The notes: generated by a model not told the origin, from the letters alone. A stretch of DNA of 32,000 nucleotides from Patescibacteria group bacterium (GCA_041674405.1 JBAYVT010000004.1:60001-92000), one strand, 5' to 3'; positions 1-17,996 are shown, counted from the stretch's first letter. Made by a program: numbers and translations.

Positions 1-3000
1 TTTGCGAATACGCTCTTTGAATTGCCGTTAAATATATTGAAGATATCGTCAGCGGTCAATCTTCCGGATCCTATTTGTGTTCCGATAGATTGGTTTACAG
101 AAGATGCGGCAAGCTTGTCGACTATGTTGTAGCCAGAAACCTTTAGGTAGTCGAGCGGGACTTGCCCACCGGAGCTATTTTTATTCTGCCTTGAAAATAC
201 CGCTTCGCTTTCTTCAGTCGAGATATTTAGCCCGAAGTCCAAAATCTTTTCAAATTGGATAAGATTAGCATCGCTAAATGGCTTGGACGATGTATTATCA
301 GAAACAAATGTGTCTAGGGCAGCTTTTATTTTATCAGCACTTCCATAATCCTTTAGGAAGTCTTTTGCCGCGGCAATTCCTTCGGCAGAAAATTGTGGCG
401 GGAATGACCTAAAATAATTTTCGAGGTAAGAAGGAACTCCGCTGCCTGTTTGTGAAGCTCCTTTAGATATGTCCAAAGATAACAAATAAACTGCGTTTGC
501 AATTTCGTCAGTATAATTTATTTTTTTATCATCGTTTGCGCTCTTGTATTCACTAGCAGCAGAATATGTGCTAAATATATGTTCGCCGGCTTTGTCGAAA
601 TACACGTAGCTATTGTCTGGTATGGTCGTGCCTGCGATATCGACATTTTGTATGGGCTGGCAGGGATTGTCAGGCGTTGCTGCTGCCATTAAGTAATTGT
701 TGTGGTCGACGAAGTAAATTTGGTTAACCCCAGGATTGTCATTTCCTCCCTTGTGTGTCATAAACGCCTTAATCGCTGCTTCGGAAACATGCATTTTTGT
801 TGCCAAAAGCCTGATAGTATCGCTGTCAGCTTCCGATTGGTCATATCCACCGATTTGTTGTCCGGTGATAAATTTCTCGGTCGTCCCGGCCGGCAGCTTG
901 CTTTTCACGTCATTCGCAATCGCCTTGGAGCGAGCCGAAGACCACGCGCTGAAGCTGTTGTTCATAAGGTCATCAAGATCAAATCCCTTTAGTCCCATGC
1001 CCGATGCAAGAATATTGTTTGCTTTGCTCCGGCTTATTTTCAATTTGTTTACCATGCCGTCACGAAGGTCTGCCAAAGATTTTGGTGACGACAGATCAGA
1101 TCCTGTTAAAATTGAGCTTCCGGCAACTCCAGCTTGCTCCTCAAGAGCTGCTGAACCGATGGCACGGAAAAAAATGTCTTTGAAACTTTGGCTGTTCTTT
1201 GCTTGGTCATTGTTTTTTGCCAGAGCCAGTGCGTCCGAAGCATATTTTAGGGCCTTTGAAGAGATCCCCAAGCTGCCGCTTAGTTTAGCTGAGGCAGCGC
1301 CAGATACTAAATCTTGCAAAGTAGTTTTTCCGGACAGGAACGAAACCAGGTCTCCCAATCCAAGCTTGGAGCCACCCAGATCGATGGAGGAAAACTTAAT
1401 ATCACTCAAGTGCAAATCTTCAATCTTAAAATCCGCCTGCTCGTTTCCAGTGGTGATCTCATATGCAGATTTTGTGATATCTTGTACATTCTGCATTACG
1501 CCATTGAGCTGGTGCAGATAATCGGAAAATGTTCCGTCATTGCTTGAAAGGCCTTCGGAGAGATCTGTAGATCCGGAAAATACCGGGGAGCTTGCTTCGT
1601 TAATGATACTGCCAATCGCGATTGCGGCTGTTGTTGTGTCTCCGCCTCCCGGGTTTGCATCAGCCTTTTCGGCAGCGGTCGCGAACACAGACAAAGCCTG
1701 TTTTAGAGCGTCATCCTTTGCTTTTATTGTGCTATTTAATTTGTCTGATACTGCGCTTGAAGCAGACGTATAACTTTGTATTCGTTGATTTAGAGTGTTC
1801 AGTGTGGACTTAATGCCGTTGATTCGGTCGGTATAATATGCCTGATCGCGAACATTTTTATTTTCTAATACATTTGAATTGTTTGCTTCTTGTGTTTTTT
1901 TATCGTCATAGCCCGAAGTCTCAAGTGCTTGCCTTAAGTTTTTTTGCCCTATTTTTTTGAAAGTACCGGCCGGGTCTGATCCTATGCCAAATAAATTTGC
2001 GAAATCGATCTGGTTTATGCCAAGCCTTGAGGCATAGGTTTGCACCTGGATTTGTGCGGTCTGCAAAGACGGCTCCTCTGCTGTATTGGTGGGAACATCT
2101 GTTGTAAATGTTGCATTTGGATTTTTAAACCAGTTGCTCAAATTTGTTCTTGATTGCTCGCCGTTTTCAAGAGCGCTCGATAGAGCAAAGATGCCAGCGT
2201 TCAATAACTGGTCCTGAGAAATTGTCCCCCCAAGAAAACTGGCCAGAGTGCCGGCAGGCAGATTAAAAATACTATCATTTTGGCCATATGAACCATTAAA
2301 GTTTTTGTATACATCCGCTCTTTTTGTGATGTAGCTTTCTGCAATTTGCTGTAGATAATTTGGAAGAGAAAGAACCCCGGCCTTAAGAGACGCTGTTGTT
2401 CCCGATCCCAAGCCGAAATCGGTATCGAGGGCACTTGGAAATGCGATTATGGTTGAAAGCTGGTTTTTTCCAATTGTAGAAAGCACATCATTAAGTCCGG
2501 ATTTATTGAATGATCCCGAGGCAAGGCCAAATTGATTTTCAATTAATCTTGCTCCGATTTGGCTATATAGGCTTGGCTGATTCATTGACTGAACGTCGAA
2601 AACTCCCTCTGGCAGTGAAAGTTCTTGAATTATTCTCTCTCTTCCGATTTGGGCGAGAATATCGGCCCTGTTCTCGCCGGTGAGTGAGCCGTAGGGGAGG
2701 CCAAGGGCTTGTTCTATCCCGGCCCTACCCAGAGATTCTTCGAGGCCATCAATATTTAAGACCGAACCATCCATAAATGGGCCAGAAGGCAACGATAAGG
2801 CTTCTGCAATTATCGAGCCGCCGATTTGTTGTAACGTACCGGAAAGGTCAAGGTTCCAAAAATCTGAATCAGTTCCAGAGTTGATGGTATTGGCAAGAAA
2901 TTGTTGGCCAACCAAGGTTAATACATCACTGAAACTATCTATGTTCATATTCTGTATATCAGAGAAATTCAGCCCGAGGCCAGATAGCATTTCAGTTATC

Positions 3001-4265
3001 GAGTCCTGGGACATTCTCTGTATTGCCGTATTGAAACTGGAATCAATCGCTGCCTTGTCTTTATTGTATCCTTCGGATGTTTGCCACAAGAGCTTAATGT
3101 TCATTGGAGGCTGGGGGATCTTGGTATCGCTGCCAATGCGGCGTTTTTTGATCAAGGTGCAGCGTATATCATCGATTTGCGAAATATCAAAAGCCTGCCC
3201 TGCATTATGCGCTGAAACTATCCGCGGGCTTTCATTGGTAATAATAAAATCTGAGATCGATTTCCCGTTATCATCAACGAGTTGCCCGCTTAAGAGGCTA
3301 TCCTTTTGCTGAATTCCTGCTTCCGCTGCTAGTTCCCCAACGCCAGAATTGTCTTCCTGTGCCTTGTATTCCTCAATTGTTTGTTCTGATTCGGCTTTTT
3401 TCTCACTGTCTTTTTGTTCGGCCACCTCAGATTCCCTGGAGAATTTGGTTACATCGTTTGTATAACTATTTCTAATCTTATCAACCTGAATTCGCCAGTG
3501 CCCGGCACCTCCAATGGGGCTATTTTTTGGACGGACCAGATAATTGAGGGTATCAATAATCCGTTTATCAATTTTGGTATTTATAATACCTTCGACAGCG
3601 GAAACCACATATTGTTTTCCTGAATCATCCTGCATTTGTTGAATCATTGATTCTTGGTCAGTTTCAAATATCTGTGCAAGAATATTTGGGCTTGCGAGAA
3701 GACGCTGTGTTAGATATCCCTGCGTGAAATATTTTGCGGATGCGTTGTCAGCAAATTTTGAAAAGCCTTCCCAGTCACTTTCGCGCATTTGGTTTAGGCT
3801 GCTTATGTCTTTGCCGGTTAAGCGTGAAAGCTCAGACGCATCGCTTTTAAGGTCTGGGAGAACAGAATTGACCAAAGCAATATTTTCCAGATCTTTCTTG
3901 TCGCTTGGGTTTAGAATTATTTTGTCCGACAAAATCAAACCGGTTGAGCTCGCATTTTTATTAAGTGGTGCAGGCGCAACGTATTGGGTGACTGGGGCTG
4001 CATCAGTGTCTGGGGTGGCAATCAACTCATCGGCAGGGAGCGAATCATCAAAATTATCTGTTGCCGGTCCGCTTGCGGGAACTGTATCTTTAGCAGATTC
4101 TCCGGAGTAATCAGCATCTGACCCAACCTGGTCATTTCCTGAATTAGCATATTGATCCTCTTCGAGTGCCTGCACAATCATGGGTTGGTATGGCAACATT
4201 ACCGAAGTTATGATTACAATCGGTATTACTAGAAAAGAAAACAATTTTATAAATTTATTTGTCAT
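1..4265 (-). CDS. Giant secreted/surface protein, partial (>1,421 aa; C-terminus lies beyond window start)
   Basis: Hand translation of the minus strand from ATG 4265-4263 stays open to position 1. It is missing from the ORF track because no stop lies in the window. The + strand ORFs listed for 702-4110 are short, mutually overlapping antisense artefacts. The N-terminus MTNKFIKLFSFLVIPIVIITSVMLPYQPMIVQA/LEE looks like a signal peptide or anchor. The ATG overlaps the upstream stop (4255-4257) by 11 nt. No family recognised. Confidence 0.8.
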   Translation of the reverse strand, partial: MTNKFIKLFSFLVIPIVIITSVMLPYQPMIVQALEEDQYANSGNDQVGSDADYSGESAKDTVPASGPATDNFDDSLPADELIATPDTDAAPVTQYVAPAPLNKNASSTGLILSDKIILNPSDKKDLENIALVNSVLPDLKSDASELSRLTGKDISSLNQMRESDWEGFSKFADNASAKYFTQGYLTQRLLASPNILAQIFETDQESMIQQMQDDSGKQYVVSAVEGIINTKIDKRIIDTLNYLVRPKNSPIGGAGHWRIQVDKIRNSYTNDVTKFSRESEVAEQKDSEKKAESEQTIEEYKAQEDNSGVGELAAEAGIQQKDSLLSGQLVDDNGKSISDFIITNESPRIVSAHNAGQAFDISQIDDIRCTLIKKRRIGSDTKIPQPPMNIKLLWQTSEGYNKDKAAIDSSFNTAIQRMSQDSITEMLSGLGLNFSDIQNMNIDSFSDVLTLVGQQFLANTINSGTDSDFWNLDLSGTLQQIGGSIIAEALSLPSGPFMDGSVLNIDGLEESLGRAGIEQALGLPYGSLTGENRADILAQIGRERIIQELSLPEGVFDVQSMNQPSLYSQIGARLIENQFGLASGSFNKSGLNDVLSTIGKNQLSTIIAFPSALDTDFGLGSGTTASLKAGVLSLPNYLQQIAESYITKRADVYKNFNGSYGQNDSIFNLPAGTLASFLGGTISQDQLLNAGIFALSSALENGEQSRTNLSNWFKNPNATFTTDVPTNTAEEPSLQTAQIQVQTYASRLGINQIDFANLFGIGSDPAGTFKKIGQKNLRQALETSGYDDKKTQEANNSNVLENKNVRDQAYYTDRINGIKSTLNTLNQRIQSYTSASSAVSDKLNSTIKAKDDALKQALSVFATAAEKADANPGGGDTTTAAIAIGSIINEASSPVFSGSTDLSEGLSSNDGTFSDYLHQLNGVMQNVQDITKSAYEITTGNEQADFKIEDLHLSDIKFSSIDLGGSKLGLGDLVSFLSGKTTLQDLVSGAASAKLSGSLGISSKALKYASDALALAKNNDQAKNSQSFKDIFFRAIGSAALEEQAGVAGSSILTGSDLSSPKSLADLRDGMVNKLKISRSKANNILASGMGLKGFDLDDLMNNSFSAWSSARSKAIANDVKSKLPAGTTEKFITGQQIGGYDQSEADSDTIRLLATKMHVSEAAIKAFMTHKGGNDNPGVNQIYFVDHNNYLMAAATPDNPCQPIQNVDIAGTTIPDNSYVYFDKAGEHIFSTYSAASEYKSANDDKKINYTDEIANAVYLLSLDISKGASQTGSGVPSYLENYFRSFPPQFSAEGIAAAKDFLKDYGSADKIKAALDTFVSDNTSSKPFSDANLIQFEKILDFGLNISTEESEAVFSRQNKNSSGGQVPLDYLKVSGYNIVDKLAASSVNQSIGTQIGSGRLTADDIFNIFNGNSKSVFA

Positions 4266-5268
4266 GAAGGGCCCATAGTCCTTTTATAAGTCCGCTATTT
4301 AATTCGCTGGCAGGCGAATATCTGGCCGGCCGGCCGCGCGACGCTTCGGCTGAAGGATCGTTCAGTACTAAGAATTTGTCGTCTTTGCTCACTCCGATAA
4401 TTACAACCCAGTGTTGGCCGGTAGCCCGAAAGGCTGTAATACCTTGTGCTAAAATTGGATTTCCAGCGGCAATCTCTTTTTTGACCGAGTCTAAATTTCG
4501 AGGGACCTGTGCGAGCTCTTTGTTTAACCCTTTACTGTTTATGTAGCTGACCCAAGTAGCCTTGTCGAGCGCCATGCTGTGGTTTGTGTCAGCCAAATAC
4601 TGGCCTAAAATATAGGGGGTTATTCCGGAAACTCCATAATAATTTGCAATCATTGCGGATGATGTAATTGCACACGCAGCACCTGCATACGAATTACGTT
4701 TACTGCTCCATCCTGCTGCTTGGCCAGGTTTGTCTCCCCATCTGGGATCGCCTTGATTGAAATACCATTTTGTCGGATCTCCAGGAACCGTTATTGAGTT
4801 GCCAAGAACTTGTTTTATATCGGCGGCATCAGCCTCGCTATAAACCGAAGCATCGATTGGCTGAGATTTTCCATCCATTCCACGATTTGATCCTGACATT
4901 CTGCCAAAGGCAGGGACGGTTATGAAAAATATTAGGAGAATGACAATGGCAATTGTGGTTAATGTCGGCCAGTTTGCGATCAAAAATGTTTTCAAAAAAT
5001 TTTTGGTCGCGAATTTTAGTGCTTTGTTCGATAAATTATCCAGCGCTTTGCCAATAACCGGTAGTCTCTTTGCTGCCTCCCACGCTCCGCCAGTTGCTGC
5101 ATCAAGCGCCTTGTCTTTGCCTGCATCGATTGCTTTATTAAGGACCTTGTTGCCGGTAACGCCGGAACCAGAACCGGATTTTGCCGCCGTTATGGCCGAG
5201 CCTCTCTCGTTTGGGCGCGGAGCCTCTGATTGTCCATCTAAATTTTCGTTATTAAATTCTTCTGGCAT
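4255..5268 (-). CDS. Membrane-anchored C39-like (Peptidase_C39_2-type) cysteine peptidase, putative cell-wall hydrolase
   Basis: Start moved to ATG 5268 (MPEEFNN...), 2 nt after the upstream TAA (5271-5273), with GGAGGAAA just upstream. One TM segment (WPTLTTIAIVILLIFFITVPAF). NQGDPRW...AGAACAITSSAMIANYYG and GQHWVVIIGVS...LNDP match the Cys/His signature of the C39-like family. Confidence 0.75.
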   Translation of the reverse strand: MPEEFNNENLDGQSEAPRPNERGSAITAAKSGSGSGVTGNKVLNKAIDAGKDKALDAATGGAWEAAKRLPVIGKALDNLSNKALKFATKNFLKTFLIANWPTLTTIAIVILLIFFITVPAFGRMSGSNRGMDGKSQPIDASVYSEADAADIKQVLGNSITVPGDPTKWYFNQGDPRWGDKPGQAAGWSSKRNSYAGAACAITSSAMIANYYGVSGITPYILGQYLADTNHSMALDKATWVSYINSKGLNKELAQVPRNLDSVKKEIAAGNPILAQGITAFRATGQHWVVIIGVSKDDKFLVLNDPSAEASRGRPARYSPASELNSGLIKGLWALHDK

Positions 5269-5270
5269 AT

Positions 5271-6419
5271 TTAGCTCCAATTTCCTCCATATTGAAAATG
5301 CATTGCGTCGCATACTCCCTTAAATTTTGCTCCCCAAAAAAACCCGTTTTTTTCAAAAGCATCTGAAACAGCTTTGGGAATATCATGGGGGCACCCTGCT
5401 GGGTCACGAGGCCTTCCGGATCGTCTTCCATTGGGATTTTGGCCTGGATTAATATCACATGCTGCGCCAGTTGAGTGTGGGCTAAGAAGGCTGGGGCTAT
5501 TCACATTGTGCCTCCAGTTATAACATCCAATATCTTTGATCTTGTATGTTGATCCACTACTTTTGATATCATTTACAACATTTTGGAGGGCAGGAACTAT
5601 ATACTTATTTACTCGAATTGAGTGGCCGAGAAAATTGAAATTAACTAGCTGCTTTTCTACTTCATTTTGTGTTTTTGAATGAAGAGCAGACTGAGCCTGT
5701 GATAATGACTTCCAGATTCCCACCTGTCCACTGCTTCCCGGACCATAACCACGAAAGTCTAAAGATCCGGAGACAAAATTATTAACTGGATTGGGGCTGG
5801 AACATTGTATTTGCCCAGGAACCAATTGTTTTAGAAAAGTGAAAAATATTTCCCTGTCTTCCGAGACATTATTTCTTGAATCAGATTCCGGCGTATATGC
5901 ATCGATCCACCAAGTTTGAATCGCGGTTCCGGCAGGGCGATTTCCATAAGGCGCAACATTATCTCGTGCTTTTGTCAGGGTTTTTACATGTTTTGTGAGC
6001 TGGTCCTCGAAGGATGTGCTACCAGGAGCGACGCCAAACGCATAGCTTGGTTTGCCAAAGTTTTGCTCCTTGCCCCATGTGGCGATTGCTACAGCCGGAT
6101 TTACACCAGCGGCCCTTGTGGCCTGAAGGATCTGATCAATACGCTCCTTGGAAGGCATGATACTTCTTCCGCCGAGTTTGGAGATTACAGAAGCAGAATC
6201 TGGAATTTCAGATGTGGAAGGACTTGTCCAGTTCTGATCTGGCATAACACATTCACCACCACCCCCCATAGCCAAGGGGGTTTCACCGGTGTTTTTGCGC
6301 ATTGTTGCAAATGTCATGCCAGCAGCTGTGCCGGCGACGAGGAATGTCAAAACTGCGCTGATTCCAATTGCAATCACCACATTTCCTCCGGATCGTGAAT
6401 TTAATTTGGCTCCCTCCAT
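5271..6419 (-). CDS. Membrane-anchored peptidoglycan hydrolase: C-terminal M15 (VanY/LAS-type) metallopeptidase plus an uncharacterised N-terminal domain
   Basis: ATG 6419 is preceded by GAGGGATAA. N-terminal TM segment (VVIAIGISAVLTFLVAGTAAG). SPHSTGAACDIN (SxHxxGxAxD, H-x6-D) and CDAMHF give the LAS/M15 zinc-ligand pattern. The N-domain segment AAGVNPAVAIATWGKEQNFG weakly resembles glucosaminidase/lysozyme-like domains (low confidence). Confidence 0.85.
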   Translation of the reverse strand: MEGAKLNSRSGGNVVIAIGISAVLTFLVAGTAAGMTFATMRKNTGETPLAMGGGGECVMPDQNWTSPSTSEIPDSASVISKLGGRSIMPSKERIDQILQATRAAGVNPAVAIATWGKEQNFGKPSYAFGVAPGSTSFEDQLTKHVKTLTKARDNVAPYGNRPAGTAIQTWWIDAYTPESDSRNNVSEDREIFFTFLKQLVPGQIQCSSPNPVNNFVSGSLDFRGYGPGSSGQVGIWKSLSQAQSALHSKTQNEVEKQLVNFNFLGHSIRVNKYIVPALQNVVNDIKSSGSTYKIKDIGCYNWRHNVNSPSLLSPHSTGAACDINPGQNPNGRRSGRPRDPAGCPHDIPKAVSDAFEKNGFFWGAKFKGVCDAMHFQYGGNWS

Positions 6420-6430
6420 TTATCCCTCGC

Positions 6431-7702: not shown

Positions 7703-7703
7703 A

Positions 7704-10662: not shown

Positions 10663-10664
10663 GC

Positions 10665-11114: not shown

Positions 11115-11131
11115 AGGATCGCTAAAAATCT

Positions 11132-11158
11132 CAAATCAATTGTAACACAATTGATTTG
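11132..11158 (-). terminator. Perfect 12-bp inverted repeat (caaatcaattgt / acaattgatttg, 3-nt loop) followed on the minus strand by AGATTTTTA; intra-operon attenuator/terminator or operator
   Basis: Read directly. It lies in the only sizeable (70 nt) intergenic gap of the T4SS gene train, between 11185 and 11114. Confidence 0.4.
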
Positions 11159-11184
11159 GAAAAAATAGGAAAAATTTTGACCAG

Positions 11185-12675
11185 TTATTCTATCGGTGAA
11201 AGAATGTTCGTTTCATTGGCAAGAGCGCCGAGAAATGCACCGCCAACTGCTAGCAGGCCCGTGCTAGATGCCTGGGATTCCGGAGTTGGATTTTGTTTGT
11301 CGAAACCGCCCCAGCCATCATAATATCCCATTGAATCCAAATCCAGCCCATCAAAATCTTCGCCTAAATGGCCTTTTTCTGATTGGACGATTCTCTTTAT
11401 GGTGTTATAAAAAACTAAGTACGATTCGATTGCGCGGGAGATCCCGGGATGTTCCGTCCTTAACTTTTCTATTGAAAAATTTCCGCCGGCGATACCTTCG
11501 GCAATTTCGGCATATTTTGTACTAATTTCTCCTGATTGATCTGTATCCGATTCACTAATGCCGAGTTCTGAACTGGAGAAACGGCTGAAACTGCCGGGAT
11601 CGAGCTTTTTAAGGCATACCTCTAAAAAGCTCAAGAAGCTTCCATCGCTCTGGAGATAAATGGCAGTGTAATCGGTTACAATTTCTTCTGCTGCCATGAT
11701 TTCGCGCGACTTTGTGAACTTTTCTTCCGACCCCCATTTTGCTTTTTCTGTCGGTGAGAGTGAATTATATTCCGATTTTTCCAAGCTCTTAATCACGTTT
11801 CTGACGTGTTGCGGCTGAAAATCAATATAATCTTTTGCATTTCGAATGATTTCTTTTGCCTCTCTAAGCGAAATCTCGATCGGAGAATTGGCATTTTCTT
11901 CATCTGCTTCGGATTCTTTGTGTTTTGCGACAGCGACTATTCCGTGGGATATCTCGTGGTCGATCATTTGAACAAAATCCAAGCTCAGGATTTTTCCTTC
12001 GGAAGTTGCAAAATTATCTTTCAGGGCAGATCTCGAGAGTTTGATAACCCCTCCCCCAAAAGACATAATCCCTTCATAACCAGCCGAGGCTCGAGATTCG
12101 TCCTCTAAACTATCGGATATTTCAACATTTTGAACGAGTGTACAGACATCATTAGCGGTAAGGTGCCCATTGATTATCGGGAGAGATAGGGCATAAAGGA
12201 TCTCTGTTTTTTTACTCAATACTCCCGAATACTCAGGGTTTTTTGATAACTCGGAAATAGCGGCATCTGAATCTTGAAACAGCGCTTCTGAACGTGCGAT
12301 AAAAATCGCCGTCTCAGTGAGAGCGCTACTAGATGGCGCAGACTCTCCGTATCGCTCTTTTAATATCGCATAAATTTTTTCAATCAGGTAAGAATTCAGA
12401 TTTTCGTCCGATATATGATTGAGGAGAATTGCAAAAACTTCTCTCTTGTCCAGGGAGTGGCTTTTATTTTCGTGAGTCATTCTTTTCGTTGCTTCGAGAA
12501 TAGAGGGACGATTCTGCTCGGTAATTTCAACTTCACCGGAATGATCTATCTCCGGTTCTGCCCCTTCCTGGCCTTCGTTGCCCCCTTCTGGTTGTTCTCT
12601 TGTTTGATCCGCTTCCGAAATTTCTGGCGATTGTCCAGGTGGGCCAGCAGAAGGGTTTGGGGCGTCAGTGGCCAT
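11185..12675 (-). CDS. Acidic T4SS-associated protein with an HExxH motif (putative metalloprotease-like) and a hydrophobic C-terminus
   Basis: 496-aa ORF starting at ATG 12675. Highly acidic N-terminus (EGGNEGQEGAEPEIDHSGEVE). MIDHEISHGIVAV contains HEISH. The C-terminal STGLLAVGGAFLGALA could be a membrane anchor. No family recognised. Confidence 0.75.
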   Translation of the reverse strand: MATDAPNPSAGPPGQSPEISEADQTREQPEGGNEGQEGAEPEIDHSGEVEITEQNRPSILEATKRMTHENKSHSLDKREVFAILLNHISDENLNSYLIEKIYAILKERYGESAPSSSALTETAIFIARSEALFQDSDAAISELSKNPEYSGVLSKKTEILYALSLPIINGHLTANDVCTLVQNVEISDSLEDESRASAGYEGIMSFGGGVIKLSRSALKDNFATSEGKILSLDFVQMIDHEISHGIVAVAKHKESEADEENANSPIEISLREAKEIIRNAKDYIDFQPQHVRNVIKSLEKSEYNSLSPTEKAKWGSEEKFTKSREIMAAEEIVTDYTAIYLQSDGSFLSFLEVCLKKLDPGSFSRFSSSELGISESDTDQSGEISTKYAEIAEGIAGGNFSIEKLRTEHPGISRAIESYLVFYNTIKRIVQSEKGHLGEDFDGLDLDSMGYYDGWGGFDKQNPTPESQASSTGLLAVGGAFLGALANETNILSPIE

Positions 12676-12706
12676 GACAGCCTTTCTTTTTTATCGTCAA
12701 ATTATC

Positions 12707-15421
12707 TTATTCGGGATTTGCGCTTGGTGGTTCTGCGGGGGGAGTCGGAGGGGGAGTCGGTGTTGAATGGGTCTCAGGGCGTGGGGTAGACGGCGCCTCT
12801 ACGGTAGTATTGTTGTTGATCACAGTTGTGTTCTGAACTGGGTTTGGCCGAACCGCATCAACGGCCCTTGCAGGTGATACGCGTGAAGATGCTTTTGCTG
12901 TGGCGCTGCCGATTTCGCGAGCAAGAGATTTTTGGAATCTTTCACTCATTAGTGTTGATGCGAGCGAATCCCCGCCGGAAACCCCCGAAGCAGCGGCAAC
13001 GCTTCCCAGGATGGAACTTGCCTGCATCGGTGAGTACGAAACAGCTGCTCCTCCTCGAGCTGCAGCGGTGGCTTGTGCAACCTGGTTCACATGTTGGGTC
13101 AACGCTTCGATATGATCGGAACCTTCGGCAAAGCCATCGCCAACCGAAATATTCTCAAATTGAGAAGCTAATTGCTTGGTTTGGTCGGCCATGCTCTGCA
13201 TCGATAATCTGGCGGAGGCAGTAGCTTCGGCAGCAGTTCTTAGTTCGGTCTGTTTGGAAGTCTGAAATTGTTTAAGAGAGTCTGACCAGGCTCGCCCTTC
13301 TGTTGAAGTCAGTTGTCCGGAAGCAGCCATTGATCTTGCGTTTACGGCTGCCTGCTGAACCTGTTGAAACGTTGAAGCTAACTTTTGTTTGGCGGCGGGA
13401 TCGCTCGTGCTAATTTTGGGTACTCCCATCTTACTAGCAATTTTGGCCGCCTCTTCAATATCACCAGCCTGAAGCTTGCTTGCGCCTGCGGCAGCATCCT
13501 GAGAAATCAATGCCAGCTTAGACCCTAGACCTTGTGGGGAAACACCGCTCATTTGGCCACGGATTAGCCTCAAACCTGCAATTTGGTCTTCGATTTGTTG
13601 GGCTCCTGCTTCAACCTCTTCGTTAACCATGGAATCACGAGCCTTCCTAACATCTTCAAAGTGTTTTCGGAGTTCTTGTTGCGCTCCAGGACTCATTGCA
13701 GCAACATCACCACCCAATCTTTGAGCCAGTTGGTCAAAATTTTCATTGCTGTGCATTGCGGCACGAGAGACCTGATCAGCCTGTGCACCAGCAAGAGCCC
13801 TAATTCCCTGGCTTGCACCGCTGATAGATGCAGCTTCTGTAGTAGCTTGGGCAGCTGCCTCAATTTCTTCACCAACAGGAGAAGAAAATCCGGAAGCATC
13901 CATGTTTCTGTTTCTTTTTCGCAAAGCTCCGGTTGTAGGATCTCTGGACTCGTCGGTTCGGAATCTCCCTTTTTCTTTACTTACAGCATCAATACTTTCC
14001 CCATTAAAAAATTTCAAGGCTTCATCATGTCCGTCGGCACTGGAATTTCCAGCCCTTCTGGTAAGTTCCTTATACTTCGCCATATATTCCCTTGATTGCG
14101 CCCAACTCATCTTTTTGTCTCTAAATAATTTTCCGTTTTTTCCTGGAGTTGCAACTTCGCCTGTTTCAGGATCGATCTCCATCGCTCCGGCCAACTTAGA
14201 AACTTCTTCATATTGCCAGGTTTTTTGTTCATCGAGAGAATCAGCCCTTAATGCGGCCCTTACTCGACCCTGGGCTCCCTTTGGCAATTTTCCGCTCATC
14301 ATAAGATCAAAGTACCTCTGGTTGAGTGCCTCTTTCTCGTACTTAGCTCTCACGTCCTGCGGAATTTGCTTAGCGGCTTTTCTATTCATCATCATCTTAC
14401 CCAAACGAGTCAGCTGAAAATCTCCTTTTTTATCATGATATCCGATCATCCTGTTCTGGGCTCTGGTTTTGACATTGTCATATTTTTCCTTCGCAAAATC
14501 ACCGGCGTATTTGGCAGCCCGACCGCCTGTCTTATTCCATCCCCATTTGCCAAGGTTGTTCCATGCTGTCATCACGCCTTTACCCATCATTTGTGGAGTG
14601 GTGATGGCAAGATAAAAACATACGCCTGCAAAGAGGATAGATAAAAACGAAAGGCCTGGGTCTCCGTCCGTTAAAGGAGCTAGCCATCTGCCGCCCACCC
14701 AAAGCCAGAAGAGGGACACAACCGGCATAAATGTCCATTTCCAGAACATTTGCCACCATTGATTAAAAACGGACTTAGAGAGGGTTAAGACGCTGGCCAT
14801 AAATGCGAGCGGTGCCAGTGCAACTAAGAAATATAGAACATAATTTCTAACGAAAAAGAAAAATGCCAGAACCAGCACCATTATCGCACCAGCGAATTCA
14901 ACCAAGGTCAAGACAAGAAAAAGGCCTATTTGTTTCCAATTGAGTGCCCCATTTGTTACCAGGGTGCTTTTATCGAAATTAGTAAGGAATGCCCCAGAAA
15001 TTCCATAATCATTATTACCTATTCCAGCTCCACCTGCAGGAGAATTTATCAGCATGCTCATCGCTGCGCTCGACAAGTCGACAATAAAGCGGCAAATCAA
15101 GTAACTGAAGTTTGCAAGAACAACAGCCATCACCAGTGCGGGCAAGAATTTTTTGATCCCGTATGTATTTATGTTTAGCTGTAAAATGTTGGCAAATGCG
15201 ATAAAGATAAGAGCGGCAATCACAACATAATTTACCATGCTGCGGATAGATTCCCAGACCTCTTTGATTGTTGCCGAAGGACCGGTTGTGCCTTGAAGTA
15301 CCTGGTAGAGTAACTCAGCGTGAGCATGAGCTGGAAAAGCAAGCGTTATCACAAAAAGAATCAGGATGATCAAGTTTGCCATAGCCACGATTCGATAAAA
15401 TTTTTGCGATTTTGCACTCAT
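12707..15421 (-). CDS. VirB6/TrbL/TcpH/ConG-like polytopic membrane protein with a ~550-aa Ala/Gln-rich helical extension and Pro-rich tail
   Basis: ATG 15421. Signal-like N-terminus (LILFVITLAFPAHAHA), then about 7-8 hydrophobic helices within the first ~300 aa. The size and position relative to the PrgI-like and VirB4 genes match Gram-positive VirB6 analogues. The C-terminal half is Ala/Gln/Ser rich and ends PTPPPTPPAEPPSANPE. Confidence 0.7.
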   Translation of the reverse strand: MSAKSQKFYRIVAMANLIILILFVITLAFPAHAHAELLYQVLQGTTGPSATIKEVWESIRSMVNYVVIAALIFIAFANILQLNINTYGIKKFLPALVMAVVLANFSYLICRFIVDLSSAAMSMLINSPAGGAGIGNNDYGISGAFLTNFDKSTLVTNGALNWKQIGLFLVLTLVEFAGAIMVLVLAFFFFVRNYVLYFLVALAPLAFMASVLTLSKSVFNQWWQMFWKWTFMPVVSLFWLWVGGRWLAPLTDGDPGLSFLSILFAGVCFYLAITTPQMMGKGVMTAWNNLGKWGWNKTGGRAAKYAGDFAKEKYDNVKTRAQNRMIGYHDKKGDFQLTRLGKMMMNRKAAKQIPQDVRAKYEKEALNQRYFDLMMSGKLPKGAQGRVRAALRADSLDEQKTWQYEEVSKLAGAMEIDPETGEVATPGKNGKLFRDKKMSWAQSREYMAKYKELTRRAGNSSADGHDEALKFFNGESIDAVSKEKGRFRTDESRDPTTGALRKRNRNMDASGFSSPVGEEIEAAAQATTEAASISGASQGIRALAGAQADQVSRAAMHSNENFDQLAQRLGGDVAAMSPGAQQELRKHFEDVRKARDSMVNEEVEAGAQQIEDQIAGLRLIRGQMSGVSPQGLGSKLALISQDAAAGASKLQAGDIEEAAKIASKMGVPKISTSDPAAKQKLASTFQQVQQAAVNARSMAASGQLTSTEGRAWSDSLKQFQTSKQTELRTAAEATASARLSMQSMADQTKQLASQFENISVGDGFAEGSDHIEALTQHVNQVAQATAAARGGAAVSYSPMQASSILGSVAAASGVSGGDSLASTLMSERFQKSLAREIGSATAKASSRVSPARAVDAVRPNPVQNTTVINNNTTVEAPSTPRPETHSTPTPPPTPPAEPPSANPE

Positions 15422-15436
15422 TTGATTCTTGCCTAT

Positions 15437-17329
15437 TTAGTTGCTAGCCAAATTTTCATATTTTCCGGAATTAACCATGTTATTATAAACTTCTGAAAAC
15501 AAAAGATAATTGTTCGCTCCTGTTCCCGCTAAGATGGCCTGGGAAGAGTAAATCGAGGGGACAAGATTCGCGGCTTTAAAAGTTGCAGTCAGCGTAGAAG
15601 TTAAGTCATCCCAGCCCTCAAAGGTAATAGTGGCCGATGAGTTATGTTGGCTATTTGGTATCCAATTTTTGGCTTGGTCTAAGGGTCCGATCTTTGCCCA
15701 AACACTGCCCCGTTGAGTCTGTGCTGCAGTCTTCAGTGCAGAGTACTTCGCAACATTTCTAAATTGAATTTTTGCTCGTAATACGTAGGCATAAGAGCTT
15801 CCTCCGCCTCCTGTTCCGCCTGCGGCGGTTCCGCTATCGGTTGTACCACCGCTAGGTGTACCACTAGTGGAATCCGTTCCAGTTCCGGAGGCTTCAGAGC
15901 TGGCAGGAGAGCTTTGTGGCTCACTGGCCTTGGCGCAGACATCAGTTTTGTTTGCCGAGGCTGATCCCGTTGCCTCGTCAGTGACTCCAAGCGATTTTTC
16001 CATTATTCCAAGTGACCAACAATAAAACGCGTTTGCCCAATTGTTTAGTATTATTGTCAGGCCGCAAAATGCACTAGCGATCATATTTACAATATATGAT
16101 TGGTCCGACACGTCGCATTCAGTTTTTCCGTCATTGGTCGAATTTAATCTTCCAGCATCCCAGAAACCCCTTGGGCCCATAACTAGCTGTAAACTGCAAT
16201 TTTTTGCTGCCGGGTCGCTAATACTTCCGTCAGCTCCAATCGTAACTTCATAATTCTGGTTCATAAAAATTTCCATATTGTTTTCTGTGGCTTGTCTTGC
16301 CTCTGACCAATCTTTGAAACCTCCTTGTGTGGGAGTATCGGGTCGGGTGACACTGTTCGGCTGGTCAGGGTTGTCATTTTTTAAGAAAAATTCCGGCATA
16401 ATTTTATAAGTTCCGGCCGGAAGGCCAGAGAGATCTGCGGACCACTGACCACTGGGTGTTCCCTCATTTGAAATCAAAACATATCCTTTGGAAATATTTC
16501 CCATCGAGGCATTTACATATGTATCAGTTGCAATTTTGAATTGGATGTAAACTGGCACATCTAGTGTCCTTGTGGCACCGGCGTCCATAAAATCCCCCGG
16601 CCATTGGACCTTGTCTTTTGGAGCCAGTTTTTTATCATTCTCAGAAAGTTTGTCCCAATAAACTGATTTCGAAAAATCAATCGCTGCAGTTCCACAGATT
16701 TTAGTACCATTGGGGATTTTTTGGGTATAAAAATTGTTAACTTTTTGGAAAATTCCAGCCACATTGCTATTTTCAGCACCAACTCCACCGTTCATATAAA
16801 AGATATAATCTTTCATGCTTTGATCAAGAGTAGGGAGCTCTTTTGATGAAGTGCCCATGGTACTCGGAAGTACCTCATACGTTTTATTATCAGTCCCCCT
16901 GTGTAACCAGAGGTAAAAATCCTTACCCTGAAGGCTTTCCTTTTTGTACAACCCCAGGGTTTCGGCATTTTTAAAACGAACCCCCAGGTAGAATCCTGCT
17001 TGTCCTTGCATCTGATACATCAAGATGCCTTCGTCATCGGTGATACCCCCTACGGTTGCAACAACAGGTGGTAAACCATTAAATGGTTTACCTGCCTTCC
17101 ATAGCTCACCAGAAATCTTTTGGGGAGATGAAAATTTGTGGCCCGTTTCTGTTGCCCCCAATTTTTCTGTAATAGTTGTGGAGGAAACGTCGAAGTAATA
17201 ATCATATTTTTGGCCTGGTGTGGGAATCATGGCTGCGCGCGCGCGGGGAGTTGTGTATGTAAACAACCCAAATAAGTTTGCTGATAGCAGCAAAACAGAT
17301 AAGGCCAAAGAATAAATTTTTTTAATCAC
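15437..17329 (-). CDS. Secreted/cell-surface protein of unknown family (630 aa)
   Basis: GTG 17329 follows GGAGGGGAT. Signal peptide MIKKIYSLALSVLLLSANLFGLFTYTTPRARA. One internal hydrophobic segment (IVNMIASAFCGLTIILNNWANAFYCWSLGI). A Ser/Thr/Gly-rich linker (SGTGTDSTSGTPSGGTTDSGTAAGGTGGGG) and a ~130-aa C-terminal domain. Confidence 0.8.
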   Translation of the reverse strand: MIKKIYSLALSVLLLSANLFGLFTYTTPRARAAMIPTPGQKYDYYFDVSSTTITEKLGATETGHKFSSPQKISGELWKAGKPFNGLPPVVATVGGITDDEGILMYQMQGQAGFYLGVRFKNAETLGLYKKESLQGKDFYLWLHRGTDNKTYEVLPSTMGTSSKELPTLDQSMKDYIFYMNGGVGAENSNVAGIFQKVNNFYTQKIPNGTKICGTAAIDFSKSVYWDKLSENDKKLAPKDKVQWPGDFMDAGATRTLDVPVYIQFKIATDTYVNASMGNISKGYVLISNEGTPSGQWSADLSGLPAGTYKIMPEFFLKNDNPDQPNSVTRPDTPTQGGFKDWSEARQATENNMEIFMNQNYEVTIGADGSISDPAAKNCSLQLVMGPRGFWDAGRLNSTNDGKTECDVSDQSYIVNMIASAFCGLTIILNNWANAFYCWSLGIMEKSLGVTDEATGSASANKTDVCAKASEPQSSPASSEASGTGTDSTSGTPSGGTTDSGTAAGGTGGGGSSYAYVLRAKIQFRNVAKYSALKTAAQTQRGSVWAKIGPLDQAKNWIPNSQHNSSATITFEGWDDLTSTLTATFKAANLVPSIYSSQAILAGTGANNYLLFSEVYNNMVNSGKYENLASN

Positions 17330-17345
17330 ATCCCCTCCGAATACA

Positions 17346-17996
17346 CTATTTGTTCAGCTCGTCTAGATATTTTGTAACATTTTCATTGGTCGGCTCGGCT
17401 AATCTTGCTTTTTGCCAGGATTCTTCTGCTTTCCCCCTGTAAAATTCTCTTGATTCACCCGATATCTCTGCGTCCTTCATCATATAATAATTTGCAAGCC
17501 CCAGATATATCCACGCATCAGCGTAATTTTCGTCCATTTCGGTTGCGGTGGTCGCAACGAGTATTGCCAGGTCGGGTCGGCCGTTTTCAATGTAGGCTTT
17601 AGCATCTTTTACAGCTTCCGATTCATTTTGCGGAACCTTGTTGGCTTCTGAGAGATCGTTCAGCGCATCTATGTCATTAATCTCTCTGAAAAATGGCTCT
17701 AGTTTTGTAATGTCCTTTTCGCTTTCCCTGGCTATAATTGTCCGTTCGTTAGCCTTGCTGCTACCTGCCAGGAACGCTGCTTTGCGGTATTCGACTAATG
17801 CAGATATAAATTTGCGATTTTTCAAAAAATCATCGCCCGAAGTTATATATTTATTTGTACCCGAAACTCTGGCGGGGCTTAAGGCGAAATACAAAATAAC
17901 AATCAGCAACAAGCCTATAACTGACCACAAAGCTGCTTTTTTCCATGATTTCTCCCCGAAATTATGCGGAGGTTTACGGGTGGCTACCTTTTTCAA
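17346..17996 (-). CDS. Membrane-anchored TPR-like repeat protein
   Basis: TTG start at 17996, 3 nt after the uppP stop. TM segment ALWSVIGLLLIVILYFAL. TPR-like helices (ALVEYRKAAFLAGS, AWIYLGLANYYMMKD). Confidence 0.7.
   Translation of the reverse strand: MKKVATRKPPHNFGEKSWKKAALWSVIGLLLIVILYFALSPARVSGTNKYITSGDDFLKNRKFISALVEYRKAAFLAGSSKANERTIIARESEKDITKLEPFFREINDIDALNDLSEANKVPQNESEAVKDAKAYIENGRPDLAILVATTATEMDENYADAWIYLGLANYYMMKDAEISGESREFYRGKAEESWQKARLAEPTNENVTKYLDELNK

What the first reader, a model, noticed from the sequence alone, without database searches (positions are those of the whole stretch)
1..17996. T4SS-like envelope machine with no visible relaxase or coupling protein and many lineage-specific parts
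Eleven co-directional minus-strand genes are joined by translational-coupling junctions. These are TAA-N-ATG at 7702/7704 and 9551/9553, TAA-NN-ATG at 5268/5271 and 10662/10665, and an 11-nt overlap at 4255-4265.

The recognisable core is VirB6-like, then PrgI/VirB3-like, then VirB4, then cell-wall hydrolases. This is colinear with the Gram-positive prgH-I-J-K / tcp / con modules.

Within 18 kb I see no VirD4/TcpA-type coupling ATPase, relaxase, VirB8-like protein or oriT-like repeat. About two thirds of the coding capacity is unrecognisable. This includes the TPR anchor, the 630-aa secreted protein, the HExxH acidic protein, the VirB4-N-domain-like protein, the PEGA-propeller protein and the >1,421-aa giant.

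The G+C composition matches the core genes and the train appears co-transcribed with uppP/PAP2. It therefore looks like a resident cell-surface apparatus rather than a conjugative element. Possible roles are host contact, effector delivery or DNA uptake in a reduced-genome organism.
Basis: partly seen in the sequence, partly recalled or inferred. Interest (0 to 1): 0.8.

Follow-up and report, generated by a model that had tools for sequence, protein, structure and literature searches.

The report
Chromosomal Patescibacteria type IV secretion locus
This is the chromosomal type IV secretion system that candidate-phyla-radiation (Patescibacteria) bacteria carry without conjugation genes; it is real and well conserved, but was already described in 2023-2025, and this is a Berkelbacteria-type copy with a few clade-specific parts.

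Summary
Eleven tightly packed minus-strand genes, or thirteen counting uppP and PAP2, sit at the stated coordinates, and every reported junction is correct.

The core is a monoderm-type T4SS:
- a VirB4 ATPase
- an adjacent TrsD-like protein homologous to the VirB4 N-domain
- PrgI/VirB3
- an extended VirB6/TrbL-like protein
- membrane-anchored peptidoglycan hydrolases

I found no relaxase, coupling ATPase, att repeats or composition shift anywhere from 5.7 kb before the window to 10 kb after it. The flanks are housekeeping genes (recF, dciA, uppP, xerC/D-like, mur/fem, tsaD).

The window comes from a 158-kb Patescibacteria contig. Its closest relatives are Berkelbacteria, and gene order is conserved in at least 10 genomes.

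It is not new, however. It matches the Patescibacteria T4SS shown to be essential in Southlakia (Wang 2023) and surveyed across 3,035 genomes (Quiñonero-Coronel 2025).

The modest additions here are:
- a narrowly distributed cytoplasmic HExxH protein found only between virB6 and prgI, with a confident predicted fold and no PDB match
- a 2,429-aa secreted protein carrying a conserved SxHxxGxAxD motif
- no VirB2-like pilin genes in this clade's loci

The system's function remains inferred.

The parts
1..4265 (-). N-terminal 1,421 codons of a 2,429-aa secreted 'giant' protein. The gene runs about 3.0 kb beyond position 1. It has a signal peptide, a conserved domain at about aa 230-400 with an invariant SxHxxGxAxD motif at aa 351-360, and then long S/L/A/G/N-rich regions with scattered LGLPxGS motifs.
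   Evidence: Translation. Full length from the source contig. The motif is present in 27 of 31 homologues and is invariant in alignment A2. Matches are motif-level only: Hedgehog/DD-peptidase in the PDB at E about 1.3 and the locus's own M15_4 domain by hhalign at 15% probability. No Pfam or NCBIfam family.
4255..5268 (-). Membrane-anchored papain-like cysteine peptidase (Peptidase_C39_2 / C70-like), a probable peptidoglycan endopeptidase.
   Evidence: PF13529 at 1.5e-10, 42 bits against a cut-off of 24. Start and SD. Homologues occur in 44 related loci.
5271..6419 (-). Membrane-anchored hydrolase with an unassigned N-terminal domain and a C-terminal Peptidase_M15_4 (LAS-type DD/LD-peptidase) module.
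   Evidence: PF13539 at 6.7e-15. The C-terminal catalytic module is swapped in other genomes. No PDB sequence match for the N-terminal part.
6431..7702 (-). Single-pass membrane protein with a PEGA-like domain and a TolB/PD40-type beta-propeller outside the cell.
   Evidence: PD40 at 1.6e-8. PEGA at 1.2e-3, just under the cut-off. TolB propeller at 1.3e-9. Homologues occur in 58 of 80 loci. The Southlakia locus has a PEGA protein, SEML1_0005.
7704..9551 (-). VirB4 ATPase (615 aa) with Walker A (GSGKS) and Walker B (VIDEAW) motifs. It lacks the first ~175 positions of full-length VirB4 models.
   Evidence: PF19044 at 6e-32. NF045971 conju_CD1110 at 358.5 bits against a cut-off of 325, model positions 176-733 of 752. 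PDB 4ag5 at 1.5e-46. More than 8,000 homologues, the top 120 at 73-91% identity, all named ones from Patescibacteria or unnamed MAGs.
9553..10662 (-). TrsD-like protein. About 250 aa are homologous to the VirB4 N-terminal domain, followed by a P/Q/T-rich low-complexity tail.
   Evidence: NF041427 TrsD at 2e-8. Matches to the N-terminal positions of VirB4 models CD1110 (11-121) and Mbov_0397 (126-304). Precomputed PF26593 TraC-like. An iterated profile also retrieves VirB4 ORFs.
10665..11084 (-). PrgI/VirB3-like small membrane protein (139 aa from the TTG at 11084, which has an AGGAGG SD).
   Evidence: PF12666 at 1.3e-9. Start. Present in 61 of 80 loci.
11132..11158 (.). Perfect 12-bp palindrome (CAAATCAATTGT-GTT-ACAATTGATTTG) in the only sizeable intergenic gap. 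It contains TGTTACAAT and may be an internal promoter/operator or an RNA hairpin.
   Evidence: It is not positionally conserved in related loci, so a role is inferred only.
11185..12675 (-). Acidic cytoplasmic protein (496 aa, no signal peptide or TM segment) with invariant H240-E241-x-x-H244 and near-invariant E331. It is a zincin-like putative metallopeptidase of an uncurated, narrowly distributed family.
   Evidence: Alignments A1, A3 and A7. AlphaFold2 pLDDT 85.6, pTM 0.85. No PDB fold match. The best BFVD hit is an IrrE-like domain at E 3e-3. No Pfam or NCBIfam family. 48 representative clusters in 1.84 billion proteins. Always found between virB6 and prgI: 18 genome loci and 5 of 5 metagenome loci.
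12707..15421 (-). Extended VirB6/TrbL-like polytopic membrane protein (904 aa). It has a signal-like N-terminus, about 5-6 TM helices in the first 300 aa, and a long hydrophilic A/Q/S-rich C-terminal region.
   Evidence: Precomputed PF19590 TrbL_3. 14 of 35 profile-linked family members hit PF04610 TrbL, best 8.6e-8. TM pattern. My own hmmscan of the window protein found no family.
15437..17329 (-). Secreted 630-aa protein with a signal peptide. It evolves fast. Positional analogues of 350-660 aa share only a C-x(13-22)-[FL]C-amphipathic-helix-S[IL]G module.
   Evidence: No family or homologue by tblastn or profile in 80 loci. A gene of this kind sits between the TPR gene and virB6 in each of the nine related loci mapped that cover this interval.
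17346..17996 (-). Single-pass membrane protein with weak TPR matches (216 aa).
   Evidence: TPR_16 at 5.9e-4, below the cut-off. Conserved directly after uppP in 12 loci.
18000..19393 (-). uppP (BacA, 18000-18821) and a PAP2 phosphatase (18818-19393). Both are undecaprenyl-diphosphate phosphatase-type genes at the head of the same-strand train.
   Evidence: PF02673 at 2.4e-77 and PF01569 at 4.7e-19. ATGA overlap and a 3-nt gap to the TPR gene. uppP lies next to the TPR gene in each of the nine related loci mapped that reach this far (L014, L013, L022, L020, L019, L027, L024, L007, L018); PAP2 was detected in only four loci. Co-transcription is not shown.

Best explanation
The locus is a chromosomally resident, vertically inherited member of the Patescibacteria-clade type IV secretion system. 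That clade derives from the monoderm MPF-FATA conjugation machinery. This copy sits in a Berkelbacteria-related genome.

**Shown here.**
- A VirB4 ATPase with its TrsD-like N-domain partner, PrgI/VirB3 and an extended VirB6 form the recognisable membrane translocon.
- Two membrane-anchored peptidases (M15_4 and C39-like) are present. The giant protein may add a third such domain, but it carries only an M15-like (LAS) motif.
- Single-pass PEGA/beta-propeller and TPR proteins are conserved alongside.
- Relaxase, coupling ATPase and integration boundaries are absent from about 48 kb.

**Inferred.**
- The hydrolases open or remodel the wall around the channel, a VirB1-like role.
- The PEGA-propeller and TPR proteins scaffold the extracytoplasmic part.
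- The Sec-exported 630-aa fast-evolving protein and the 2,429-aa giant protein are surface-exposed host-contact parts.
- VirB4 powers assembly and export of protein, rather than conjugative DNA, towards a host cell on which the bacterium depends. This is suggested by analogy with the essential Southlakia system.
- The in-locus cytoplasmic HExxH protein is a candidate substrate or processing factor.
For: - **Core families:**
- **Source and relatives:** the window is identical to a 158-kb ENA contig, and NCBI names the proteins as 'Patescibacteria group bacterium'. The closest VirB4 homologues are Berkelbacteria, at up to 82% in species-representative genomes.
- **Synteny:** in at least 10 genomes the order is uppP, TPR, secreted protein, VirB6, (HExxH), PrgI, TrsD, VirB4, hydrolase/PEGA, C39, giant.
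- **Flanks:** housekeeping genes, with recF and dciA within 2.7 kb of the giant gene's end.
- **No element boundaries:** no att-like repeats and no G+C shift.
- **Literature:**
  - A monophyletic Patescibacteria VirB4 clade is present in 2,407 of 3,035 assemblies, with TrsD, PrgI and VirB6 nearby, relaxases nearly absent, and the locus often near dnaA/dnaN.
  - The Southlakia T4SS genes are essential in co-culture, and that locus is colinear with this one.
  - A comEC deletion there abolishes competence but not viability.
Against: - **Function:** function and substrate are not shown for any Patescibacteria T4SS, and nothing here tests activity.
- **Placement:** I did not build a VirB4 tree, so placement in the published clade rests on identity and on the names of relatives.
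- **VirB6 call:** my own hmmscan of the window's 904-aa protein did not reproduce the TrbL hit. That call relies on a precomputed annotation and on transitive homology.
- **Genome coverage:** the rest of the genome could not be searched. A distant VirD4-like gene, a relaxase or pilin genes may exist; the literature reports distant t4cp genes in most of these genomes.
- **Transcription:** co-transcription with uppP/PAP2 is supported only by spacing and synteny. Promoter and terminator scans were no better than shuffles.
Confidence: 0.88

Rival explanations
1. It is an ordinary, or decaying, integrative conjugative element of the Gram-positive prg/tcp/con type. Its relaxase, coupling protein and oriT lie outside the window.
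For: VirB4 scores above the cut-off of a conjugative-element model, conju_CD1110. The order VirB6-PrgI-VirB4-hydrolase is colinear with prgH-I-J-K. A tyrosine recombinase lies 1.4 kb from the end of the finding's region, right after the uppP-PAP2 genes that head the train.
Against: - Gene calls and domain hits over about 48 kb show no relaxase or VirD4/TcpA.
- The recombinase is XerC/D-like at 238 bits and sits at the same place in other genomes.
- No flanking repeat of 13 bp or more and no composition shift.
- Both flanks are housekeeping genes, and synteny is conserved across genomes whose housekeeping proteins are only about 50-60% identical.
- The literature finds relaxases in only 103 of 3,035 Patescibacteria genomes.
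Confidence: 0.04
2. It is a DNA-import machine, analogous to ComB of Helicobacter or Ced of Sulfolobales. It would feed nucleotides or genes to a bacterium that cannot make them.
For: The bacterium has a reduced genome. VirB4 gives weak sub-threshold matches to CedB and CedD (1.6e-11 and 4e-7, far below cut-off). recF and dciA are neighbours. The literature notes comF, recG and radA near T4SS genes in class ABY1.
Against: No ComEC-, ComB- or Ced-specific component is in the locus. In Southlakia, competence depends on comEC and type IV pili. A comEC deletion abolishes transformation without loss of viability, whereas the T4SS is essential, so the essential role there is not DNA uptake. The CedB and CedD scores are generic P-loop similarity.
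Confidence: 0.06
3. The VirB4 module mainly assembles an extracellular filament or adhesive structure (pilus biogenesis or surface display) and does not translocate substrates into another cell.
For: VirB4 is required for pilus biogenesis in known systems. Other Patescibacteria loci carry VirB2-like pilin arrays that are essential in Southlakia. This locus encodes large secreted or surface proteins next to the ATPase.
Against: No VirB2-like pilin gene lies in this locus or in its closest relatives. The giant and 630-aa proteins have Sec-type signal peptides, so they do not need the T4SS for export.
Confidence: 0.15

Closest known systems
T4SS of Candidatus Southlakia epibionticum ML1 (SEML1_0004-0019; Wang et al. 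2023, PMC10633639) and the Patescibacteria VirB4 clade (Quiñonero-Coronel et al. 2025, PMC12102498)
   Same: - Chromosomal and next to recF.
- Colinear: PEGA protein, wall hydrolases (lysozyme/cysteine peptidase and a large DD-peptidase-fold protein), VirB4, TrsD-like, PrgI and large VirB6-like proteins.
- No relaxase or coupling protein in the locus.

   Different: - No VirB2-like pilin array here; Southlakia has six essential pilin genes.
- One VirB6-like gene here instead of two.
- No NTF2/VirB8-like gene recognised.
- Extra parts here: the cytoplasmic HExxH protein, a TPR anchor, a 630-aa secreted protein, a beta-propeller fused to the PEGA protein, and a giant of 2,429 aa against 1,113 aa.
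- The train is headed by uppP and PAP2.
Gram-positive conjugative MPF-FATA systems: pCF10 prgH-I-J-K-L, pGO1/pSK41 trsC-D-E-G, Clostridioides CTn-type (CD1110 family)
   Same: - VirB4 scores above the CD1110 family cut-off.
- PrgI family member present.
- TrsD-like partner as in pGO1.
- VirB6 before VirB3 before VirB4, followed by wall hydrolases.
- No outer-membrane core.

   Different: - No relaxase, VirD4/TcpA, VirB8-like PrgL/TraM or PrgB-type adhesin found.
- The hydrolases are M15 and C39 types rather than SLT plus CHAP.
- The setting is a conserved chromosomal one, not a plasmid or ICE.
T4CP-less effector or toxin exporters (Bordetella Ptl, Brucella VirB), as cited
   Same: VirB4-dependent machines that work without a dedicated coupling protein and export proteins rather than DNA.
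   Different: Those are diderm MPF-T systems with a full VirB2-VirB11 set. Their substrates are known, and some cross the inner membrane by Sec. There is no sequence relationship beyond VirB4, VirB3 and VirB6.
IrrE/ImmA-type (M78) and other minimal zincins, for the 496-aa HExxH protein only
   Same: - Invariant HExxH on a long helix preceded by a small beta-sheet, and a conserved downstream Glu on another helix.
- The best structural hit is an IrrE N-terminal-like domain of a phage protein.
- From general knowledge: zincin domains of this kind occur in proteins delivered by conjugative elements and phages, for example ArdC-type and polyvalent proteins.
   Different: - No Pfam or NCBIfam membership.
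- Foldseek finds nothing in the PDB.
- The BFVD hit is weak (E 3e-3, TM 0.23).
- The candidate Glu lies 87 residues after the motif, farther than in IrrE.
- Catalysis is untested.

Membership tests
Type IV secretion system (VirB4-defined superfamily) | VirB4-family ATPase with intact Walker A and B motifs | tested here: met
   PF19044 at 6e-32. NF045971 at 358.5 bits against a cut-off of 325. PDB 4ag5 at 1.5e-46. GSGKS and VIDEAW are visible in the sequence.
Type IV secretion system (VirB4-defined superfamily) | VirB3-like small membrane partner next to VirB4 | tested here: met
   PF12666 PrgI at 1.3e-9, 38.9 bits against a cut-off of 27.
Type IV secretion system (VirB4-defined superfamily) | VirB6/TrbL-like polytopic membrane protein | tested here: met
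   Precomputed PF19590 TrbL_3 on this exact protein. 14 of 35 profile-linked homologues hit PF04610, best 8.6e-8. 5-6 N-terminal TM helices. My direct hmmscan of the window protein was negative.
Type IV secretion system (VirB4-defined superfamily) | VirB8-like (NTF2-fold) component | tested here: inconclusive
   No sequence family hit in any locus protein. Folds of the TPR, 630-aa and giant proteins could not be modelled, so a divergent VirB8 is not excluded.
Conjugative element (ICE or plasmid, MPF-FATA) | Relaxase (MOB family) linked to the T4SS | tested here: not met
   None found in the window or in the precomputed domain hits for the flanks, from -5.7 kb to about +10 kb. The rest of the genome was not searchable.
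Conjugative element (ICE or plasmid, MPF-FATA) | Type IV coupling protein (VirD4 or TcpA) | tested here: not met
   Same scans as for the relaxase. The only P-loop T4SS ATPase is VirB4. The literature warns that t4cp homologues are often distant from virB4.
Conjugative element (ICE or plasmid, MPF-FATA) | Integration module with att boundaries, and island-like composition or variable presence | tested here: not met
   The recombinase is XerC/D-like and syntenic in other genomes. No shared repeat of 13 bp or more between the flanks; the four 12-mers found compare with about 0.7 expected per strand. G+C is 0.443 against 0.455.
Patescibacteria-clade T4SS (Quiñonero-Coronel 2025; Wang 2023) | VirB4 belongs to the monophyletic Patescibacteria clade | tested here: inconclusive
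   All close relatives (54-91% identity) are Patescibacteria or unnamed MAGs. No phylogeny with reference MPF classes was built.
Patescibacteria-clade T4SS (Quiñonero-Coronel 2025; Wang 2023) | TrsD homologue and PrgI/VirB3 encoded beside virB4 | tested here: met
   NF041427 TrsD at 2e-8 and PF26593. PrgI. The order PrgI-TrsD-VirB4 is seen in 60 or more loci.
Patescibacteria-clade T4SS (Quiñonero-Coronel 2025; Wang 2023) | Chromosomal location, often near replication genes (dnaA, dnaN, recF) | tested here: met
   dciA and recF lie 1.3-2.6 kb beyond the giant gene. recF is also near the T4SS in L040-L043. dnaA and dnaN themselves lie beyond the sequence I could read.
Patescibacteria-clade T4SS (Quiñonero-Coronel 2025; Wang 2023) | VirB2-like pilin genes near virB4 (frequent but not universal: 1,135 of 1,948 pilin-bearing assemblies) | tested here: not met
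   No small 2-TM ORF and no PF18895 or PF04956 hit in the window or in the close loci L004-L029. The same screen found verified PF18895 genes in L030, L035, L036, L062, L065 and L079.
Zincin metallopeptidases (for the 496-aa protein) | HExxH on an active-site helix plus a third zinc ligand | tested here: met
   H240, E241 and H244 are invariant and E331 is at least 90% conserved in three alignments. The model places HExxH in helix 234-256 after a three-strand sheet, and E331 in helix 317-341. Site geometry was not measurable.
Zincin metallopeptidases (for the 496-aa protein) | Membership of a curated family or a significant fold match | tested here: not met
   No Pfam or NCBIfam hit. Only sub-threshold Zincin_1, SprT-like and DUF4344 matches in 1-2 of 48 members. 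PDB Foldseek E > 0.2. PDB profile against M48/BepA at E about 0.5. BFVD IrrE-like at E 3e-3.
LAS / M15 (Hedgehog/DD-peptidase fold) zinc peptidases (for the giant protein's conserved domain) | H-x6-D zinc-binding motif (SxHxxGxAxD) | tested here: met
   SAHNAGQAFD at aa 351-360. Present in 27 of 31 homologues. S, H, G, A and D are invariant in A2.
LAS / M15 (Hedgehog/DD-peptidase fold) zinc peptidases (for the giant protein's conserved domain) | Third His ligand and the LAS fold | tested here: inconclusive
   No invariant downstream His in A2. hhalign to the M15_4 module aligns 20 columns at 15% probability. The PDB profile hits Sonic hedgehog at E about 1.3. The single-sequence AlphaFold model was unusable, pLDDT 34. 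The Southlakia counterpart was annotated with this fold by others.

The most novel reading that the evidence does not exclude
The Berkelbacteria-type locus may be a pilin-less variant of the Patescibacteria T4SS in which two things hold.

1. A dedicated cytoplasmic zincin-like protein is the system's own substrate (an effector delivered to the host cell) or an obligatory processing or coupling factor that stands in for the missing T4CP. This protein belongs to a new family with a confident predicted fold, no PDB match, and a fixed position between virB6 and prgI.
2. The 2,429-aa protein with the LAS-like motif and the fast-evolving secreted protein form the host-wall-breaching contact structure.
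Probability: 0.15. Interest if true: 0.65.

Novelty: new member of a known kind. Interest (0 to 1): 0.3.

Why it matters
Patescibacteria make up a large share of bacterial diversity and appear to live on other microbes. Their T4SS is the first one shown to be essential for its owner's growth, yet its substrate and mechanism are unknown.

This locus does not change that picture. It does give a clean, compact, well-conserved Berkelbacteria-type example that differs in three useful ways:
- no pilin array in the locus
- a dedicated cytoplasmic HExxH protein
- modular, swappable wall hydrolases and a giant secreted protein

These differences narrow down which parts are universal: VirB4, TrsD, PrgI, VirB6, the PEGA protein, hydrolases and a large protein with the SxHxxGxAxD motif. 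They also nominate one concrete candidate substrate or cofactor to test.

Tried and rejected
- **Ordinary ICE.** Rejected, for three reasons. The flanks are housekeeping genes. No att repeats were found. The recombinase is Xer-like and syntenic.
- **Homologue searches for the HExxH protein.** The word-indexed search returned only the query itself, both with the single protein and with a 17-sequence profile, which cost two of three searches. The exhaustive representative search worked and gave 48 clusters.
- **Structure prediction with locus-derived homologues.** It was accepted with the representative-search hits.
- **Giant protein's conserved domain.**
  - Single-sequence AlphaFold2 gave pLDDT 34, unusable.
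  - The profile against the PDB and hhalign against M15_4 gave only motif-level matches.
- **N-terminal domain of the M15 hydrolase family.** No PDB sequence match.
- **Promoter and terminator scans.** No enrichment over shuffles, so the operon structure is unresolved.
- **Palindrome at 11132-11158.** Not positionally conserved, so I do not claim it as oriT or a regulator.
- **Metagenome scan with the broad HExxH alignment.** A narrower alignment gave 5 loci.
- **GC-rich, apparently ORF-poor stretches.**
  - I suspected non-coding RNAs, but found no Rfam or tRNA hit.
  - One stretch resolved into a small membrane-protein gene plus a terminator.
  - One looks like a GC-rich foreign ORF.
  - One remains unexplained.

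Full report
**Observation**

The window's minus strand carries an unbroken train of genes from 19393 down past position 1.
- TAA-N-ATG at 7706-7700 and at 9555-9549.
- TAA-NN-ATG at 5273-5266 and at 10667-10660.
- An 11-nt overlap at 4255-4265.

The train extends two genes further than the finding's end. The uppP stop at 18000 is 3 nt from the TPR gene start, and PAP2 and uppP overlap as ATGA. The only real gap is 11115-11184. G+C is 0.443 for the train and 0.455 for the rest of the window.

**Source and extent**

An exact-protein look-up found the source, a 158-kb ENA metagenome contig (ERZ27247358 k141_1092591). Its sequence is identical to the window over the 15,268 bases compared. The proteins are also in NCBI as hypothetical or DUF87 proteins of a 'Patescibacteria group bacterium' MAG, locus tags WC080_03250-03295.

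The contig shows that the 'giant' is 2,429 aa. It is followed by a 306-aa zinc-ribbon protein, dciA and recF. Beyond the other end of the window lie an M20 peptidase, a GNAT acetyltransferase, a DedA-type protein, a Phd antitoxin and polysaccharide-synthesis genes. Inside the window, after the train, come a XerC/D-like recombinase, a Mur ligase, FemAB, TsaD, a class I tRNA synthetase, an HTH-Fic pair and a double GNAT.

Over about 48 kb there is no relaxase, no VirD4/TcpA and no pilin family hit. No repeat of 13 bp or more is shared between the two flanks.

**Identities of the parts**

- **VirB4** is unambiguous: PF19044 at 6e-32, NCBIfam conju_CD1110 above its curated cut-off, and PDB 4ag5 at 1.5e-46. 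It aligns to model positions 176-733 of 752.
- **The 369-aa protein** upstream aligns to the missing N-terminal positions of VirB4 models and to TrsD, NF041427 at 2e-8. Its precomputed annotation is PF26593 TraC-like. This is the TrsD/VirB4 pair known from pGO1-type systems.
- **PrgI** is a Pfam member.
- **The 904-aa protein** has 5-6 N-terminal TM helices and a long hydrophilic tail. A precomputed annotation gives PF19590 TrbL_3. Of 35 homologues linked to it by an iterated profile, 14 hit PF04610 TrbL/VirB6. My direct scan of the window protein itself was negative.
- **Two membrane-anchored hydrolases** carry Peptidase_M15_4 and Peptidase_C39_2 domains.
- **The 423-aa protein** is a single-pass PEGA-like plus TolB/PD40 propeller protein.

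**The 'unrecognisable' parts**

1. **The giant.** It has a signal peptide and a conserved domain at aa 230-400. The SxHxxGxAxD motif in that domain, the H-x6-D signature of LAS/M15 peptidases, is present in 27 of 31 homologues and invariant in the alignment. Profile searches gave only motif-level matches: Sonic hedgehog at E about 1.3, and the locus's own M15_4 module over 20 columns at 15% probability. A single-sequence AlphaFold model failed with pLDDT 34. The fold is therefore unproven here. The Southlakia gene in the same position, SEML1_0007, was annotated as Hedgehog/DD-peptidase by structure.

2. **The acidic 496-aa protein.**
   - *Sequence features:* it has no signal peptide or TM segment. 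H240-E241-x-x-H244 is invariant and E331 is at least 90% conserved in three alignments.
   - *Predicted structure:* with a 48-sequence alignment AlphaFold2 gave pLDDT 85.6 and pTM 0.85. The model has a small three-strand sheet, then the HExxH helix, and E331 on a later long helix. This layout is zincin-like.
   - *Fold and family matches:* Foldseek found nothing in the PDB at E below 0.2. The best BFVD hit was a phage 'IrrE N-terminal-like domain' at E 3e-3, probability 0.97, TM 0.23. No Pfam or NCBIfam family matches.
   - *Distribution:* the family is narrow, with 48 representative clusters in 1.84 billion proteins.
   - *Genomic context:* I found it only between virB6 and prgI, in 18 genome loci and in all 5 metagenome loci retrieved with the protein itself as bait.

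3. **The 630-aa secreted protein.** It has no detectable homologue by standard searches. A signal-peptide protein of 350-660 aa occupies the same slot in each of the nine related loci mapped that cover this interval. These share a short C-x(13-22)-[FL]C-amphipathic-helix-S[IL]G module.

4. **The TPR protein.** It is a weak TPR match but is conserved directly after uppP in 12 loci.

**Relatives and synteny**

A scan of one genome per species found 217 loci encoding relatives of this VirB4. The closest (73-82% identity) are named Berkelbacteria, Patescibacteria or Saccharibacteria MAGs.

In at least 10 of them the order is (xer | PAP2) - uppP - TPR - secreted protein - VirB6 - (HExxH) - PrgI - TrsD - VirB4 - hydrolase/PEGA-propeller - C39 - giant. 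In these genomes VirB4 is about 75% identical to the window's, while UppP, PAP2 and Xer are about 50-60% and the accessory proteins 25-45%. That pattern is expected for an old, vertically inherited locus with a strongly constrained ATPase. It is not the pattern of a recently moved element.

The triplet PrgI-TrsD-VirB4 is seen in more than 60 loci spanning several candidate phyla. The PEGA protein occurs in 58.

VirB2-like pilin genes (PF18895) were verified next to virB4 in more distant loci. None exists in the window or in the close clade.

**Comparison with the literature**

This is the Patescibacteria T4SS.
- **Wang et al. 2023 (PMC10633639)** showed by Tn-seq that the Southlakia locus SEML1_0006-0019 is essential. 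They noted that it resembles Gram-positive conjugative T4SSs, has pilins, and lacks recognisable coupling and relaxase proteins. Their tables show a locus colinear with this window, starting next to recF.
- **Quiñonero-Coronel et al. 2025 (PMC12102498)** surveyed 3,035 genomes:
  - They found a monophyletic VirB4 clade nested in MPF-FATA in 2,407 of them, with TrsD, PrgI, VirB6 and VirB2-like genes nearby.
  - Relaxases occurred in only 103 genomes, t4cp homologues were mostly far from virB4, and the locus was frequently close to dnaA/dnaN.
- **A 2025 review (PMC12857230)** lists these systems as a new T4SS subgroup. It also reports that comEC deletion abolishes competence without affecting viability.

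**Mechanism**

*Shown:* the parts list, their order, their conservation, and the lack of conjugation functions nearby.

*Inferred:*
- A VirB4/TrsD-powered PrgI-VirB6 channel sits in a monoderm envelope.
- Local wall remodelling is done by the anchored M15 and C39 peptidases, and perhaps by the giant's domain.
- The PEGA-propeller and TPR proteins act as extracytoplasmic scaffolds.
- The giant and the fast-evolving secreted protein are surface contact parts.
- The system exports protein towards a host cell rather than carrying out conjugation or DNA uptake.

The cytoplasmic HExxH protein is the most concrete new lead, as a candidate substrate or cofactor, but nothing here tests that.

**Verdict**

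This is a new, clade-specific member. Interest is modest (0.3) because the open question of what the machine transports is not made more tractable by this locus, beyond nominating one candidate protein.

Noticed in passing
window 11132-11158: A perfect 12-bp palindrome (CAAATCAATTGT-GTT-ACAATTGATTTG) sits in the only sizeable intergenic gap of the train. It contains a TGTTACAAT extended -10-like element and is followed by a T-run. It is not conserved at this position in related loci.
   Followed up: partly
window 23800-24900: A GC-rich (about 0.5-0.59) 1.1-kb divergent intergenic stretch lies between femAB and tsaD. It has only short ORFs overlapping on both strands, no Pfam hit, no Rfam or tRNA hit, and moderately negative folding z-scores (-2 to -3). 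It remains unexplained.
   Followed up: partly
window 20483-21478: A GC-rich convergent 'intergenic' kilobase holds an uncalled-looking 164-aa four-TM protein gene (20895-21389, minus strand, AGGAGG SD). A strong hairpin-plus-T terminator at about 20810-20840 follows it. A possible 56-aa ORF lies at 20510-20680.
   Followed up: yes
window 26230-26745 and 30215-31237: Two ORFs have much higher G+C than the genome: a 171-aa ORF at about 0.64 with no family hit, and a double-GNAT 340-aa gene at about 0.52. They look like foreign acquisitions among housekeeping genes.
   Followed up: partly
window 29198-29865: An HTH_17 (AlpA/MerR-like) gene overlaps a Fic/Doc-family gene by 4 nt. This is a toxin-antitoxin-like pair.
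   Followed up: no
L024 1253-1657, 7744-8094, 11859-12221, 15671-16081; L014 9590-9949; L013 2062-2430; L022 8592-8864; L010 6512-7887 and 9544-9975: Related T4SS operons are peppered with small inserted genes that the window lacks. These are PF05635 '23S rRNA-intervening sequence' four-helix-bundle genes (four copies inside one operon), an AbiEi/AbiEii pair, and a DUF559 endonuclease-like gene.
   Followed up: partly
window 5271-6419 and its homologues (e.g. L017 12288-13634, L010 11881-13131, L016 6697-7941): The membrane-anchored hydrolase near virB4 keeps its N-terminal domain but swaps the C-terminal catalytic module between genomes: M15_4, C39/NlpC-like or amidase-like. The order of this gene and the PEGA-propeller gene also flips between genomes.
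   Followed up: partly
window 19412-20482: A XerC/D-like tyrosine recombinase is transcribed divergently only 18-27 bp from the PAP2 start. The same arrangement occurs in L013 and L014, with xer also close to uppP in L022. It could be mistaken for an ICE integrase.
   Followed up: yes
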